Source of the DNA: a virus | Strand: one strand, 5' to 3' | DNA length: 64,000 bases | Virus record (IMG/VR): IMGVR_UViG_3300020156_000022 | Span: 1-64,000 of that record | Shown: positions 24,976 through 41,250 of the stretch, in pieces | Numbering within the stretch: position 1 is the stretch's first letter | Layout of the letters: each line of letters starts with the position of its first letter | Position numbers and translations under genes: made by a program | The notes under the pieces: generated by a model | Seen by the model: the letters and a program-made list of their open reading frames with translations, nothing else | Database searches by the model: none | Told to the model about the DNA's origin: nothing

Positions 24976-25088
24976 AGGCAGTGGCAGGTCTCGAACCTGC
25001 TAGCACCTCTCATCCTACCATGGATTCTGGATGCTGACTACGTGTACTTTGTCGTCAAGACGAGTATCTTCCCCAAACGTTCACTGCC
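24976..25088 (-). ncRNA. tRNA-like RNA with non-tRNA interior
   Basis: GGCAGUG/CACUGCC acceptor and GCAGG-UUCGAGA-CCUGC T-arm around ~80 nt of other structure; promoter at 25096-25124. Confidence 0.6.
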
Positions 25089-37848: not shown

Positions 37849-37933
37849 AGCTGTTCCAATCTTAGTAGATATGAGTAACGTCCTGTTGCTGGAACCTATA
37901 CTAGCATTACAGCAACAGGACGTTAAGGTAATT

Positions 37934-39553
37934 TCAGATTCGACCTGCTGAGAAGTCAGCGATCACTGACGGAGCGTTGGTGTCGAAACCTGCAACATTC
38001 AGGGTGCCGTTCACATCGTTAGGGTCGCCTACAGTAAACGGAGTAGCTGCCGCACCTACAACTACCAGCTTGGCGTCAATACCCATCTTCTGACGATAAT
38101 CCTTCAATGCACGCTCAGGCTTAATACGTCCAGCCCAAGTTTCGTTGTCGGTGTAAATCTGGAAGGTGTCAACTTCAATCTTGTTCTGCAATGCCCAAAC
38201 CATAGGCTGAGCAATATCAGTACCACCAAATGCCTGACCCTGCAACTTGCGGTTAACAGTAGCCAGATCCATCTTAGCAGTAATACCAAGATCACGGAAG
38301 GAAGTTGAGAAGCCCATGATCTGATACCAAGGCTCAACACGAGCAGTAACCATAGCCATAGCAGCAGTCACCTGTGCACAGCTTAGATCAATACCCAGTG
38401 CCGCAGAACCCATAGAACCAGAAACATCCAGAGCAAGCAAGGTTCGCTTGTTAGCAGGAGTAATGGACTTGAATGCAGCGTGGAATCCAGCATCCAAAGC
38501 ATCAGCAATTACAGGATTAGTTACCCAGTCCTTCTTACGAGTAATTGCATACCAACCATAAGACTCATTACGCTGCATCTGGCCCTCAGTATGAGTAACC
38601 AGAGCTAGAAGATACTGGATTGGGTGAAGACGAGTCTTCGCAATCATGTCAGAATCAACTAGAGCATTAGCAACTGCACGGGTAAACACCATATCGTTGA
38701 ATGCGCCAATACGAGAAAGGCGAGTAATCTGACGAACAAGTGCCTGACCCTTAAGCTGACCGTTAGCGAAAAGCTGCTTCCAAACCTCAGGCTCCTTAAG
38801 GAACTGAGTAGGAATAGTCTCCCAAGGAAGGTTAGTGAAACGCCCCAGAATATCGATAGCCTCAACAGAAGAAGAAGCAAGCTGCATCTTCTGAAAACCA
38901 TCGATAATGTCAGAATCGCCGTCTAGATCAATAAAGACAGGCTTACCAAGGATAAAATTACCTACACGTTGATCAACGCCAGTAGGGTGAGACAGGCGCA
39001 TAAGGTCACGCATAGTCCAACCATCACGCTGACGGTATTTAACAGCCTGGTACGCAAGCTGGTCAGCAGTCTTAGACTCAAACCACTTAGAGATTGCACG
39101 ACGCTTTGCACGACCCCAACCTCCAAGACCTTCGATGAAGGCAGCAAGCTGGTAAACGTGAGTAGCGATACGAGCAACCCTAGGAGCAGCCTCAACTACG
39201 GCCTGCTTAATACCCTGAACAGCCTCAGGCTCAGAAAGCATAAGAGCTAGGACGAAAATAGCAGCCTCGTTACGGTAGGCACGCCCCTTGTCGGACACGT
39301 CAATAACAGTAGCGAGAACAGTCTTAGGGTCCTTAGCGATCATCTTACGGATGAAGTCGACGTTCTGCTTAGTAAGATCCTTCTCACCCACGTAGTAGGT
39401 GCCCTTATCGGTACCAAGAATAAGGAAACGCTCAAGGCGCTGAATGTCAGATACTTCGAAAACGTAACCACCAGCGTTGTTCTTCACCTCATCGGAACGA
39501 GACTTCTCACGCTGAGTAGGTACAGCAGTAGAAAAATTCTTTAGTGCAGACAT
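37934..39553 (-). CDS. rsr: Ro60/Rsr TROVE-vWA RNA-binding protein
   Basis: NNAGGYVF, RFLILG..GTYY, GWGRAKRRA, KYRQRDGW..RDL.RLSHP, RLHP, vWA MIDAS LALDVSGSM, GGTD, YTDNETW; start MSALKN. Confidence 0.96.
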   Translation of the reverse strand: MSALKNFSTAVPTQREKSRSDEVKNNAGGYVFEVSDIQRLERFLILGTDKGTYYVGEKDLTKQNVDFIRKMIAKDPKTVLATVIDVSDKGRAYRNEAAIFVLALMLSEPEAVQGIKQAVVEAAPRVARIATHVYQLAAFIEGLGGWGRAKRRAISKWFESKTADQLAYQAVKYRQRDGWTMRDLMRLSHPTGVDQRVGNFILGKPVFIDLDGDSDIIDGFQKMQLASSSVEAIDILGRFTNLPWETIPTQFLKEPEVWKQLFANGQLKGQALVRQITRLSRIGAFNDMVFTRAVANALVDSDMIAKTRLHPIQYLLALVTHTEGQMQRNESYGWYAITRKKDWVTNPVIADALDAGFHAAFKSITPANKRTLLALDVSGSMGSAALGIDLSCAQVTAAMAMVTARVEPWYQIMGFSTSFRDLGITAKMDLATVNRKLQGQAFGGTDIAQPMVWALQNKIEVDTFQIYTDNETWAGRIKPERALKDYRQKMGIDAKLVVVGAAATPFTVGDPNDVNGTLNVAGFDTNAPSVIADFSAGRI

Positions 39554-39575: not shown

Positions 39576-39693
39576 GAACGAATATGTATGGATGATTGGG
39601 GTGCCCTACCATTTTGGGCGTCTGGTTGATCTGCGTACAGCCTACCAGACAGGGATCGAACCTGCAAGATAACCAATCAAGATCGACTCGTTC
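39576..39693 (-). ncRNA. Y RNA 1 (YrlA-like, permuted tRNA-like domain)
   Basis: GAACGA-GUCGA..UGAUUGG-UUAUC, T-arm GCAGG-UUCGAUC-CCUGU, CUGGU/ACCAG, D-arm GCCC..UGGUA-GGGC, CCAAUCA..CAUAU-UCGUUC. Confidence 0.85.
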
Positions 39694-39702
39694 AGAGTCA
39701 AG

Positions 39703-39830
39703 TGTTTCTGACAGGGTATGAACCTGCACATTTGTACTTCTTCAAAGATACTCCCCATAGCTAAGCTATAAGTTTCACTTCCGTACAAACCACCGAGGTT
39801 TCTCGGCTGCTATACTTTGCATACAGAAAC
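39703..39830 (-). ncRNA. enlarged tRNA-like spacer
   Basis: GUUUCUG/CAGAAAC-A acceptor, D-like arm, extra CCGAG/CUCGG hairpin, branched UUUGUAC/GUACAAA arm, T-arm. Confidence 0.65.
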
Positions 39831-39833
39831 AAG

Positions 39834-39957
39834 TGCGGCGAAAAAAGGATTCGAACCTCTTCAGTGAGATGAGCTTAGCACGTCTAGTCCATGTTCGTCA
39901 ACATGCTAAAAACGTGCAGCCTATGACACTCATCCTAGTCTCATAAACCAAAGCCGC
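39834..39957 (-). ncRNA. tRNA-like spacer with long rod insert
   Basis: GCGGC/GCCGC-A, GAGG-UUCGAAU-CCUU, nested GAUGAG/CUCAUC, GCACGU/ACGUGC, CAUGUU/AACAUG. Confidence 0.55.
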
Positions 39958-39963
39958 AAGTAA

Positions 39964-40123
39964 TTGATGAATATGGGAGCGTAAACGAATAATATACAGA
40001 CGCTCTGCCATTGAGCTATACCCCGTTCATCTATATAGCGTTGTTTGCGCTAGTCGGGGCAGGAGGATTCGAACACTCCAACATTCTGTTTCCTCAGATA
40101 ATCGTATTACTTCGACTCATCAA
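39964..40123 (-). ncRNA. Y RNA 2 (YrlA-like)
   Basis: UUGAUGA-GUCGA..ACGA-UUAUC, T-loop GUUCGAAUC, CCCCG/CGGGG, D-arm GCUC-AAUGGCA-GAGC, CAUAU-UCAUCAA. Confidence 0.85.
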
Positions 40124-40125
40124 AG

Positions 40126-40182
40126 TGTCCCCGGTTGGATTCGAACCAAACTTACACTACCAGGCGCTAACTGGCAAGGGAC
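40126..40182 (-). ncRNA. minimal D-armless tRNA-like spacer
   Basis: GUCCC/GGGAC-A, GCCAG/CUGGU hairpin, UUGG-UUCGAAU-CCAA. Confidence 0.6.
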
Positions 40183-40189
40183 TATAATT

Positions 40190-40357
40190 TTACTTTCTAG
40201 GCTTAGGCCAGCGATCAATTACTACCCTAAGATTTTCACATTCCTTCATTGCAGCATCAAAAGCTTTAGTATCTTTAGCTTCTCTCGCTTTTGCTAACTT
40301 TTCTCGTGCTTGCTGTAAAGCCTCTTGAGCTTCTCGTTTACTAGAATAGCTAGCCAA
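40190..40357 (-). CDS. 55 aa basic helical protein inside the Y-RNA array
   Basis: GAGG RBS, TTG start, MASYSSKREAQEALQQAREKLAKAR... Confidence 0.6.
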   Translation of the reverse strand: MASYSSKREAQEALQQAREKLAKAREAKDTKAFDAAMKECENLRVVIDRWPKPRK

Positions 40358-40366
40358 GGTTACCTC

Positions 40367-40522
40367 TCAGAATAGATTAGCTACAGTTTGAGCGTTGTTA
40401 ACTTCCTTCTGAAGTTGTGCAATAGTAGCTGCGTCAGCCTTGTTCTTTTTAGCTGCTTTTAGTGCAGCCTTAGCCTCTGCAAGTTTCTGAAATGCTTCGT
40501 GGCTGCTTGTAATCTTAGCCAA
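40367..40522 (-). CDS. 51 aa basic helical protein inside the Y-RNA array
   Basis: GGAG RBS, TTG start, MAKITSSHEAFQKLAEAKAALKAAK... Confidence 0.6.
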   Translation of the reverse strand: MAKITSSHEAFQKLAEAKAALKAAKKNKADAATIAQLQKEVNNAQTVANLF

Positions 40523-40558
40523 TTTAAATCTCCACAAGATTAGTAATTAATTAATAGA

Positions 40559-40691
40559 AGTGAACATGTAAGTGAAAAACGGGTTTTTAAGTGCTGCCAT
40601 TACACCACCCGCCCATGAAATGGACGAGCTGGGATTCGAACCCAGACCTTTCCTTTATAAGAGAAGATAACCGTTATTCGTTCGGCTCACT
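40559..40691 (-). ncRNA. Y RNA 3 (YrlA-like)
   Basis: AGUGA-GCCGA..AACGG-UUAUC, T-arm CUGGG-UUCGAAU-CCCAG, CUCGUCC/GGGCGGG, D-arm, CAUGU-UCACU. Confidence 0.85.
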
Positions 40692-40694
40692 AAG

Positions 40695-40771
40695 ATCTCC
40701 TGGCAGGACTCGAACCTGCATGAGGGGTGGCACTAATCCTCGCCAACGTCTACCAATTCCGCCACAGGAGA
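40695..40771 (-). ncRNA. degenerate Leu-like tRNA spacer with non-canonical anticodon arm
   Basis: UCUCCUG/CAGGAGA, Leu-type D-arm GGCGGAAUUGGUAGACG, perfect T-arm; no clean 7-nt loop. Confidence 0.6.
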
Positions 40772-40778
40772 AAATTAC

Positions 40779-40844
40779 TTCGAATATGTGTTGATGATGG
40801 TTATTTTTATTTTCAGTAAGATAAACCAACATCTCCGACTCGAA
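40779..40844 (-). ncRNA. Y RNA 4 (minimal, A-rich loop)
   Basis: UUCGA-GUCGG..UGGU-UUAUC..A-rich loop..ACCA..CAUAU-UCGAA. Confidence 0.75.
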
Positions 40845-40847
40845 TTG

Positions 40848-40921
40848 TGTTTCTGGCAGGAATCGAACCTGCTACCTTCGCTGTATATATTACGCTGCTC
40901 AATCCAATGAGCTACAGAAAC
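40848..40921 (-). ncRNA. tRNA-like spacer with collapsed anticodon loop
   Basis: GUUUCUG/CAGAAAC-A, good D- and T-arms, irregular GCGUA-AUAUA-UACAGC arm. Confidence 0.65.
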
Positions 40922-40927
40922 ATATAA

Positions 40928-41014
40928 TCAGGATATAATTTAGACATCGGAAAGCCCAGACAACGCTGAGCGAATTCACCATTTGAAAGATAACCGATGA
41001 TCCTTCGACCCTGA
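40928..41014 (-). ncRNA. Y RNA 5
   Basis: UCAGG-GUCGA..CAUCGG-UUAUC...CCGAUG..UAUAU-CCUGA. Confidence 0.75.
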
Positions 41015-41020
41015 AACTTG

Positions 41021-41112
41021 AAGTTGAACATGTGTTTGAGATCAAACTATGCCACTATGGGCAATTAATTTTGGAGTAATTATCTGATAATCGATCTCAT
41101 TCGGCTCAACTT
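41021..41112 (-). ncRNA. Y RNA 6
   Basis: AAGUUGA-GCCGA..GAGAUCGA-UUAUC...UUGAUCUC..CAUGU-UCAACUU. Confidence 0.8.
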
Positions 41113-41113
41113 G

Positions 41114-41189
41114 TACTCCGTACCGGATTTGAACCGGTGCTCTTCTGATTGAGAATCAGATGTCTTAGACCAGACTAGACGAACGGAGC
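41114..41189 (-). tRNA. tRNA-Glu(CTC)
   Basis: TCTGA-TTCTCAA-TCAGA. Confidence 0.9.
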
Positions 41190-41221
41190 ATGTCTGTAAG
41201 CACTAGCTGCTTACAGGTATT

Positions 41222-41250
41222 ACCTTACACTACCTTCAGGCTGTTGTCAA
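41222..41250 (-). promoter_or_regulatory. promoter of the tRNA-Glu / Y-RNA array / Ro60 transcript
   Basis: TTGACA-N17-TAAGGT. Confidence 0.8.

What the first reader, a model, noticed from the sequence alone, without database searches (positions are those of the whole stretch)
39703..41250. Anticodon-defective tRNA-like spacers punctuate the Y-RNA array
Seen transcript order from the promoter at 41222-41250: tRNA-Glu, Y6, Y5, tRNA-like, Y4, tRNA-like, Y3, two ORFs, tRNA-like, Y2, tRNA-like, tRNA-like, Y1, Ro60, mostly with gaps under 10 nt. The five spacers keep an acceptor stem and T-arm but have lost or rebuilt the anticodon arm; two share the acceptor GUUUCUG/CAGAAAC-A. Established: RNase P and RNase Z recognise mainly the acceptor stem and T-arm. 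Inference: the spacers are kept as processing signals so that host enzymes cut out each Y RNA, a tRNA-punctuation mechanism as in mitochondria. They could also be Ro60 cargo or decoys.
Basis: partly seen in the sequence, partly recalled or inferred. Interest (0 to 1): 0.8.

Follow-up and report, generated by a model that had tools for sequence, protein, structure and literature searches.

The report
tRNA-shaped spacers in phage Y-RNA operon
In this uncultured soil-type phage, six small Ro60-partner RNAs (Y RNAs) lie almost flush between one real tRNA and five tRNA-shaped RNAs that cannot read codons. Host tRNA-trimming enzymes probably cut most of the Y RNAs free, but no RNA ends have been mapped, and at least one "spacer" looks like a functional RNA in its own right.

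Summary
Observation confirmed. On the minus strand a conserved promoter (41250-41221) is followed by tRNA-Glu, Y6, Y5, A, Y4, B, Y3, two small ORFs, C, Y2, D, E, Y1 and Ro60, with gaps of 1-9 nt. A-E keep a 12-bp acceptor/T-arm stack and a canonical T-loop. They share the flank signature of the phage's 26 real tRNAs (U-1, N73-C74, no CCA). None has a 5-bp/7-nt anticodon arm.

Interpretation partly supported.
- In 31 related Ro60 phage loci, 29 of 68 Y RNAs start within 20 nt of a tRNA(-like) 3' end (1.8 expected).
- The slot before Y3 holds a real tRNA, a dubious tRNA or a dummy, depending on the relative.
- Only 8 of the 12 Y termini abut a tRNA shape.
- About nine more tRNA-like elements lie outside the array.
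- D carries a conserved structured insert (7 compensatory pairs, none broken), so it is more than a spacer.
- C contains a weak promoter-like match.

Co-transcription of Y RNAs with a tRNA is already shown in Deinococcus (Chen 2014). This scan has noted the same layout in several other phage genomes. No RNA-end data exist. My classification: a new variant of a known kind.

The parts
41221..41250 (-). Promoter TTGACA-N15-TGTAAGGTA at the head of the array
   Evidence: TTGACA and TGTA..GTA are invariant in four relatives. There are 3 exact copies in the window against 0 expected. All 29 copies with up to 3 mismatches lie on the minus strand.
41114..41189 (-). Genuine tRNA-Glu(CUC), first gene of the transcript
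   Evidence: ARAGORN; Rfam tRNA 64.6 bits.
41021..41112 (-). Y6, short Y-RNA-like hairpin with GCCGAAUG motif
   Evidence: Terminal stem and motif; found by the Y scanner.
40928..41016 (-). Y5, short Y-RNA-like
40848..40921 (-). Spacer A: perfect acceptor, D and T arms. The anticodon arm is replaced by an AU-rich stretch that cannot pair.
   Evidence: ARAGORN 4-nt 'anticodon'; Rfam tRNA 44.2 bits with the anticodon arm skipped; z -3.5.
40778..40845 (-). Y4, short Y-RNA-like; homologue of the second Y in L051
40695..40771 (-). Spacer B: 7-bp acceptor, tRNA-Leu-type D arm and canonical T arm. The anticodon and variable region is rebuilt.
   Evidence: ARAGORN 'tRNA-???'; no Rfam tRNA match; recovered by the scanner.
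40558..40691 (-). Y3, YrlA-type Y RNA with internal T and D arms
   Evidence: Partial YrlA match; homologues in many Streptomyces-phage loci.
40190..40537 (-). Two small conserved ORFs (56 and 55 aa, TTG starts after GGAG/GAGG)
   Evidence: Two small ORFs sit at the same place in L001, L049 and L051; sequence similarity was detected for ORF1 only.
40126..40182 (-). Spacer C: 57-nt minimal tRNA top half (6-bp acceptor plus 6-position T stem). It contains a 3-mismatch promoter-like match at 40177-40148.
   Evidence: positional analogue in L049.
39965..40122 (-). Y2, YrlA-type Y RNA
   Evidence: YrlA 21 bits; Y scanner.
39834..39957 (-). Spacer D: 5-bp acceptor plus 7-bp T stem, 4-bp D-like hairpin, and a long helix with an inner hairpin in place of the anticodon arm. 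It has a conserved unpaired GUCAUAGGCU.
   Evidence: RNAalifold against L001: 38 pairs, 7 compensatory, 0 broken; z -4.7; interior conserved at least as well as the frame.
39703..39830 (-). Spacer E: same acceptor as A, a hairpin with a 4-nt loop, a 61-nt extra arm and a T arm. It is absent from L001, and both D and E are followed by CUUG.
   Evidence: z -2.8; no homologue found.
39576..39693 (-). Y1, YrlA-type Y RNA just upstream of Ro60
   Evidence: YrlA 29.8 bits, E 0.0017.
37934..39553 (-). Ro60 gene (TROVE plus Ro60 vWA domains)
   Evidence: Pfam E 1.8e-34 and 3.8e-59; 52-58% identity to the best-matching Streptomyces-phage Ro-like proteins.
37875..37925 (-). Strong 16-bp hairpin after the Ro60 stop, likely the 3' end or stabiliser of the operon
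   Evidence: z -5.2.

Best explanation
The array is one operon of non-coding RNAs and mRNAs, driven by a conserved sigma-70-type promoter. Each tRNA-shaped element (tRNA-Glu and A-E) keeps what host RNase P and the 3' tRNA-processing enzyme (RNase Z or equivalent) recognise.

Cleavage at its 5' end would release the upstream RNA with a 2-9 nt tail. Cleavage after N73 would release the downstream Y RNA with a 1-9 nt leader starting at C74. Exonucleases would then trim to the Ro60-protected stem. This accounts for 8 of the 12 Y termini; the other four need another nuclease.

The spacers are former tRNAs, or copies of them, whose decoding part was freed from selection. At least D, and probably E, has been re-used as a scaffold for a structured RNA with its own unknown role.

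Shown here: the layout, the folds, the flank signature and the comparative pattern. Inferred: co-transcription, the cleavages and the trimming.
For: 1. Map with gaps of 1-9 nt.
2. The promoter is invariant in four relatives and recurs only on the minus strand. The consensus scan finds no sigma-70-type promoter on the minus strand of the array and only two weak U-poor terminator-like hairpins, one in E and one at the start of Y1.
3. All 26 real tRNAs have C74 and never C75, and 20 of 26 have U-1. The five spacers have C74 in 5/5 (C frequency on this strand is 0.19), no C75, and U-1 in 4/5.
4. In 31 related loci, 29 of 68 Y RNAs have a tRNA(-like) ending within 20 nt upstream (1.8 expected, P 2e-27). 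23 have one starting 3-11 nt downstream. Most of these neighbours are real tRNAs.
5. The slot before Y3 holds B here, a tRNA-like with a 5-nt loop in L049, tRNA-Lys(UUU) in L001, and a tRNA-Val call with C33 in L051.
6. tRNA-like elements are enriched over real tRNAs inside the array (5:1 against 9:25, Fisher P 0.014).
7. In a fold of the 1676-nt precursor, 10 of 12 modules stay autonomous.
8. Precedent: Deinococcus Yrn2, tRNA-Asp and Yrn1 come from one precursor, M. smegmatis YrlA/YrlB come from one precursor, and RNase P cuts YrlA (PMC4201824).
Against: - No RNA data exist for this or any related phage.
- The Y6/Y5 junction, the Y3 3' end and the Y1 3' end have no tRNA shape. Y-Y pairs without a tRNA are common in relatives.
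- D and E in tandem are redundant as punctuation.
- D's acceptor is only 5 bp in this phage, with two extra bases between the stems.
- B and C fold no better than shuffles.
- C overlaps a TTGCCA-N15-TGTAAGTTT promoter-like match, which could give Y2 to Ro60 its own start.
- Loci in the clade-wide count are not phylogenetically independent.
Confidence: 0.6

Rival explanations
1. The tRNA-shaped elements are mainly functional, non-decoding tRNA mimics. They could be partners or cargo of the Ro60-Y RNP, or sponges for host factors that bind the tRNA top half or 3' end. Their tRNA-type processing would then only be how they are made, and release of the Y RNAs would be a by-product.
For: - D's insert has 5 of the 7 compensatory pairs, no broken pair, and an unpaired stretch 83% identical, against 64% at Ro60 four-fold sites.
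- D-E tandems here, and two tandem tRNA-likes between a Y RNA and Ro60 in L064, are more than punctuation needs.
- tRNA-likes are enriched next to Ro60.
- YrlA-type Y RNAs themselves mimic tRNA and receive CCA (PMC4201824).
Against: - A, B, C and E have no detectable homologues, so there is no evidence that their interiors are conserved.
- The same slot is filled by ordinary tRNAs in relatives.
- About nine other tRNA-likes lie far from Ro60.
- No binding partner is indicated.
Confidence: 0.25
2. The spacers are decaying, redundant tRNA genes with no selected role. Their position merely reflects the ancestral tRNA cluster into which the Y RNAs were inserted.
For: - The phage has other Lys and Leu tRNAs.
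- Relatives have real tRNAs in the same places.
- Turnover is fast, and most elements lack homologues.
Against: - Damage is confined to the anticodon region. Acceptor stems, T arms, T-loops, U-1 and C74 stay intact in all five.
- D is conserved with covariation.
- C-type and anticodon-defective elements recur in L049, L051 and L064.
- A and E share an acceptor, so at least one arose by copying a module that was already defective or was then remodelled.
Confidence: 0.1
3. The array is not one transcript. Internal promoters, such as the match inside C, drive sub-operons, and Y ends are set by transcription starts and other nucleases.
For: - A 3-mismatch promoter-like site lies at 40177-40148.
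- All 29 promoter-like matches lie on the minus strand, although only about 7 are expected by chance over both strands. Most are therefore probably real.
Against: - Only this one weak site lies inside the array, and it is not conserved in the L049 analogue.
- The scan finds no sigma-70-type promoter on the minus strand of the array and only two weak U-poor terminator-like hairpins.
- An extra start in C would not explain the other flush junctions.
Confidence: 0.05

Closest known systems
Deinococcus radiodurans Yrn2 / tRNA-Asp / Yrn1 precursor, and M. smegmatis YrlA/YrlB precursor (Chen et al. 2014, PMC4201824)
   Same: Y RNAs lie upstream of Ro60 and are made from one polycistronic precursor that includes a tRNA. 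RNase P can act on tRNA-like parts.
   Different: Those loci have one real tRNA or none. Here five stand-alone tRNA shapes that cannot decode are interleaved with six Y RNAs in a phage.
t-elements of plant mitochondria (Forner et al. 2007, PMC1920247) and animal mitochondrial tRNA punctuation
   Same: tRNA-like folds without decoding function sit at the borders of mature RNAs and are cut by RNase P and RNase Z.
   Different: Those are organellar mRNAs and rRNAs. Here it is a bacteriophage operon of Ro60-partner RNAs, cleavage is not yet shown, and punctuation is incomplete (8 of 12 ends).
MALAT1/mascRNA and murine gammaherpesvirus 68 tRNA-miRNA units (from my own knowledge, not checked here)
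   Same: A tRNA-like module recruits tRNA-processing enzymes to define the end of a neighbouring non-coding RNA. The viral case uses non-aminoacylated tRNA-like RNAs.
   Different: Those are eukaryotic, with a different partner RNA and a different transcription system.
Phage T4 stable RNAs species 1 and 2 in the tRNA cluster (from my own knowledge, not checked here)
   Same: Small non-tRNA RNAs are co-transcribed with phage tRNAs and matured by the tRNA-processing machinery.
   Different: T4 uses real tRNAs as neighbours, and its stable RNAs are not Y RNAs.
YrlA-type Y RNA (Rfam RF02553)
   Same: It is a tRNA mimic with T and D arms. Y1-Y3 of this array belong to this type at sub-threshold scores.
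   Different: In YrlA the tRNA-like domain is internal and permuted, and closed by the Ro60-binding stem. Spacers A-E have normal tRNA topology and no GNCGAA stem.

Membership tests
Canonical tRNA (RF00005) | 7-bp acceptor stem, T arm with 5-bp stem and UUCRANY loop | tested here: met
   Met for A, B and E. C is 6+6 bp and D is 5+7 bp, but each totals 12 stacked positions.
Canonical tRNA (RF00005) | Anticodon arm with 5-bp stem and 7-nt loop carrying U33 and a 3-nt anticodon | tested here: not met
   ARAGORN gives 4-nt anticodons for A and B. Infernal skips A's arm. C has none. D and E have long inserts.
Canonical tRNA (RF00005) | Score above the Rfam gathering threshold (29 bits) | tested here: inconclusive
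   A scores 44.2 bits. B, C and E have no match, and D has only a 17-bit match below the threshold.
YrlA / bacterial Y RNA (RF02553) | Stem of the 5' and 3' ends carrying GNCGAA(N)G, next to a Ro60 gene | tested here: not met
   The spacers lack the motif and the stem. The six Y RNAs have them. Best YrlA score is 29.8 bits against a 69-bit threshold.
tmRNA tRNA-like domain | tRNA-like domain joined to a tag-encoding reading frame with pseudoknots | tested here: not met
   ARAGORN finds no tmRNA. Rfam tmRNA matches in the window are absent or far below threshold.
tRNA-like processing signals (t-elements, tRNA punctuation) | Non-decoding tRNA-like fold that keeps the acceptor/T-arm determinants | tested here: met
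tRNA-like processing signals (t-elements, tRNA punctuation) | Placed at the borders of the mature neighbouring RNAs | tested here: met
   Gaps of 1-9 nt to the predicted Y stems. The same holds clade-wide. Only 8 of 12 Y ends are covered.
tRNA-like processing signals (t-elements, tRNA punctuation) | Mapped RNA ends coincide with RNase P and RNase Z cleavage sites | not testable with these tools
   The phage is uncultured and no transcriptome is available.

The most novel reading that the evidence does not exclude
This phage, with about 14 tRNA-shaped non-decoding RNAs, makes a family of stable, CCA-tailed tRNA mimics. D and E carry dedicated structured inserts on a tRNA handle. These RNAs would work together with the Ro60-Y RNPs, or soak up host factors that attack or bind the tRNA top half or 3' end. 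Under this reading the 'spacers' are effectors, not punctuation.
Probability: 0.25. Interest if true: 0.8.

Novelty: new variant of a known kind. Interest (0 to 1): 0.55.

Why it matters
Ro60/Y-RNA systems are widespread in large phages of actinobacteria, but how their Y RNAs are matured is unknown. If dummy tRNAs are kept purely to recruit RNase P and RNase Z, phages have arrived at the same solution as mitochondria and some herpesviruses.

It would also mean that tRNA finders miss a whole class of phage RNAs. Unannotated examples sit in the cultured Streptomyces phages Gilson and Comrade.

The flush tRNA/Y junctions in those cultured relatives make the idea directly testable. D shows that a tRNA frame can also serve as a carrier for new structured RNAs.

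Tried and rejected
The many 65-78% identical Ro60 proteins on long contigs could therefore not be turned into loci, and covariation tests rest on very few sequences.
- A 15-nt pattern from D's conserved core found only chance matches in IMG/VR, apart from the L001 contig.
- blastn of every module against all fetched loci found no homologues for E, C, Y1, Y2, Y6 or ORF2, only T-arm-length matches for A and B, and only L001 for D.
- Rfam has no family for C, D or E.
- No CCA-adding enzyme or RtcB is present in the 77%-complete record.
- Two reviews on bacterial Y RNAs were not held.
- My first, loose tRNA-like scanner gave too many hits and was replaced by the strict one.
- Frameshift-suppressor tRNAs with 8-nt loops were rejected as a reading of A and B, because neither has a proper anticodon stem.
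- Evasion of anticodon nucleases by loop mutations (PMC10264068, title and abstract; the paper was not read) seems a poor fit, because these elements have no anticodon loop left with which to decode.

Full report
**What the window is.** It is the first 64 kb of a 104,982-nt IMG/VR virus record with 42.8% G+C, estimated 77% complete. ARAGORN finds 28 tRNA-type genes in the window, all on the minus strand. The ORF at 39553-37934 (minus strand) is a Ro60 protein with TROVE and Ro60-vWA domains. It is 52-58% identical to the best-matching 'Ro-like RNA binding protein' genes of Streptomyces phages of the family Stanwilliamsviridae, and 71-75% identical to uncultured relatives.

I defined each module by its closing stem. 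The minus strand then reads:
- promoter 41250-41221;
- tRNA-Glu(CUC), Y6, Y5, A, Y4, B, Y3;
- two small ORFs;
- C, Y2, D, E, Y1, then Ro60.

Gaps are 1, 4, 6, 2, 6, 3, (ORFs), 3, 7, 3 and 9 nt (the Y2 boundaries, and so its two flanking gaps, follow the Y scanner). All six Y RNAs carry the GNCGAA(N)G-type motif after a 5' strand that pairs with the 3' end.

Y1, Y2 and Y3 also give sub-threshold YrlA matches with an internal T arm and D arm.

The five spacers:
- A, B and E have 7-bp acceptor stems and 5-bp T stems.
- C is a 57-nt top half (6+6 bp).
- D has 5+7 bp.
- All therefore keep a 12-position coaxial stack, a UUCRANN T-loop, or UUCAUAC in E, and a discriminator.
- None has a 5-bp/7-nt anticodon arm.

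**This is more than chance.** A strict acceptor-plus-T-arm scanner gives 35 hits on the minus strand and 1 on the plus strand of the whole genome.

**Evidence for one transcript.** It occurs three times exactly in the window against none expected. With up to three mismatches it occurs 29 times, all on the minus strand. The consensus scan shows no sigma-70-type promoter on the minus strand inside the array, and only two weak U-poor terminator-like hairpins, one in E and one at the start of Y1. One caveat remains: a three-mismatch promoter-like match lies inside C at 40177-40148. A strong hairpin follows the Ro60 stop codon.

**Evidence that the spacers are treated as tRNAs.** All 26 real tRNAs of the phage are followed by C74 but never by C75. 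20 of the 26 have U at -1. The five spacers have C74 in 5/5, no C75, and U-1 in 4/5. C makes up 19% of this strand. In a fold of the whole 1676-nt precursor, 10 of 12 modules keep their own closing stems.

**Comparative evidence.**
- With a Ro60 alignment I fetched 80 phage loci and annotated them with ARAGORN, the tRNA-like scanner and a Y-RNA scanner. The Y scanner finds exactly the six Y RNAs here and none on the reverse strand.
- In 31 non-redundant loci of the closer clade, 29 of 68 Y RNAs begin within 20 nt (mostly 0-3 nt) of the 3' end of a tRNA or tRNA-like. 23 end 3-11 nt before one. Chance predicts 1.8 for each.
- In most relatives the neighbours are real tRNAs. Examples are the contigs whose lengths equal those of Streptomyces phages Gilson and Comrade.
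- In the closest relatives the slot before Y3 varies. It holds tRNA-Lys(UUU) in L001, a tRNA-shaped RNA with a 5-nt loop in L049, and a tRNA-Val call with C33 and a possible 5-nt loop in L051. Here it holds B.
- A C-like minimal element follows the two ORFs in L049.
- L051 has a tRNA-like between Y1 and Ro60.
- L064 has two in tandem there.
- So a tRNA shape is retained at these positions whether or not it can decode.

**Limits of the 'spacer' reading.**
- Only 8 of the 12 Y termini abut a tRNA shape. Y-Y pairs without a tRNA are common in relatives.
- About nine other tRNA-like elements lie elsewhere in the genome. Even so, tRNA-likes are enriched over real tRNAs inside the array (Fisher P 0.014).
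- D has a homologue in L001 at 75% identity. The consensus fold has 38 pairs, 7 with compensatory changes and none broken. Five of the seven lie in the insert.
- D's unpaired interior is 83% identical, against 64% at four-fold sites of Ro60. It contains GUCAUAGGCU, which resembles a CAU anticodon loop followed by a 46-nt insertion. D is therefore a selected structured RNA, not filler.
- E is absent from L001 at the same junction. Both D and E are followed by CUUG, and E shares A's acceptor. This suggests module copying.
- B and C fold no better than shuffled sequence.

**Relation to what is known.** Chen et al. 2014 showed that Deinococcus Yrn2, tRNA-Asp and Yrn1 come from one precursor. They also showed that M. 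smegmatis YrlA and YrlB come from one precursor, and that RNase P cuts YrlA. Their screen discarded matches that overlapped tandem tRNA genes. tRNA-like t-elements that guide RNase P and RNase Z are known in plant mitochondria. A 2025 paper on a Thermus phage Ro60 describes Y-like RNAs but no tRNA-like spacers. I found no paper describing non-decoding tRNA shapes interleaved with phage Y RNAs. This scan has noted the same layout in several other phage genomes.

**Verdict.** The processing idea is the best-supported mechanism for most junctions, but it is untested and incomplete. At least one spacer has a function of its own.

Noticed in passing
window 52071-51973, 47197-47128, 42669-42572, 36190-36124, 36071-35953, 25088-24976, 24063-23984, 6488-6404, 2216-2127 (all minus strand): About nine further tRNA-shaped elements with aberrant or missing anticodon arms lie outside the Y array. 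Most have the same N73-C74 flank, and their inserts share no sequence with each other.
   Followed up: partly
window, 29 sites on the minus strand, e.g. 25124-25095, 48465-48436, 44099-44070, 52135-52106: The promoter family TTGACA-N15-(T/G)GTAAGGTA occurs only on the minus strand. The copy at 25124-25095 ends 7 nt before the tRNA-like at 25088, so that element may start at the transcription start.
   Followed up: partly
window, all 26 real tRNA genes: Every tRNA gene encodes N73-C74 but never C75-A76, and 20 of 26 have U at -1. No CCA-adding enzyme was found in the 77%-complete record.
   Followed up: yes
window 41214-41190 (minus strand), and the same place in L049, L001 and L051: A leader hairpin lies between the promoter and tRNA-Glu(CUC). 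It is conserved as a structure in the relatives.
   Followed up: no
window 40537-40367 and 40357-40190 (minus strand): Two small Lys/Ala-rich ORFs with TTG starts sit inside the RNA array. Two small ORFs sit at the same place in L001, L049 and L051. Their function is unknown (only a weak DUF7623 match).
   Followed up: partly
L075:6934-7007 and L054:7040-7113: A tRNA-shaped element without a normal cloverleaf follows tRNA-Arg(GCG), 3 nt after it in L075 and about 140 nt after it in L054. These contigs have the lengths of Streptomyces phages Comrade and Gilson. In the related phage Belfort this space after tRNA-Arg(GCG) is unannotated.
   Followed up: partly
window 39702-39683 (minus strand) and L001:5852-5871: A conserved small hairpin (GACUC-N5-GAGUC) pairs the 9-nt leader with the 5' strand of Y1's Ro60-binding stem. 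In the untrimmed precursor it would compete with the Y1 closing stem.
   Followed up: no
L047:60-780: In one relative, ORFs including an HNH-like one are inserted between the last Y RNA and Ro60.
   Followed up: no
L045:1077-1234: A sub-threshold manA RNA match (45.6 bits, E 9e-9) lies between tRNA-Gln and tRNA-Trp of Streptomyces phage TunaTartare.
   Followed up: no
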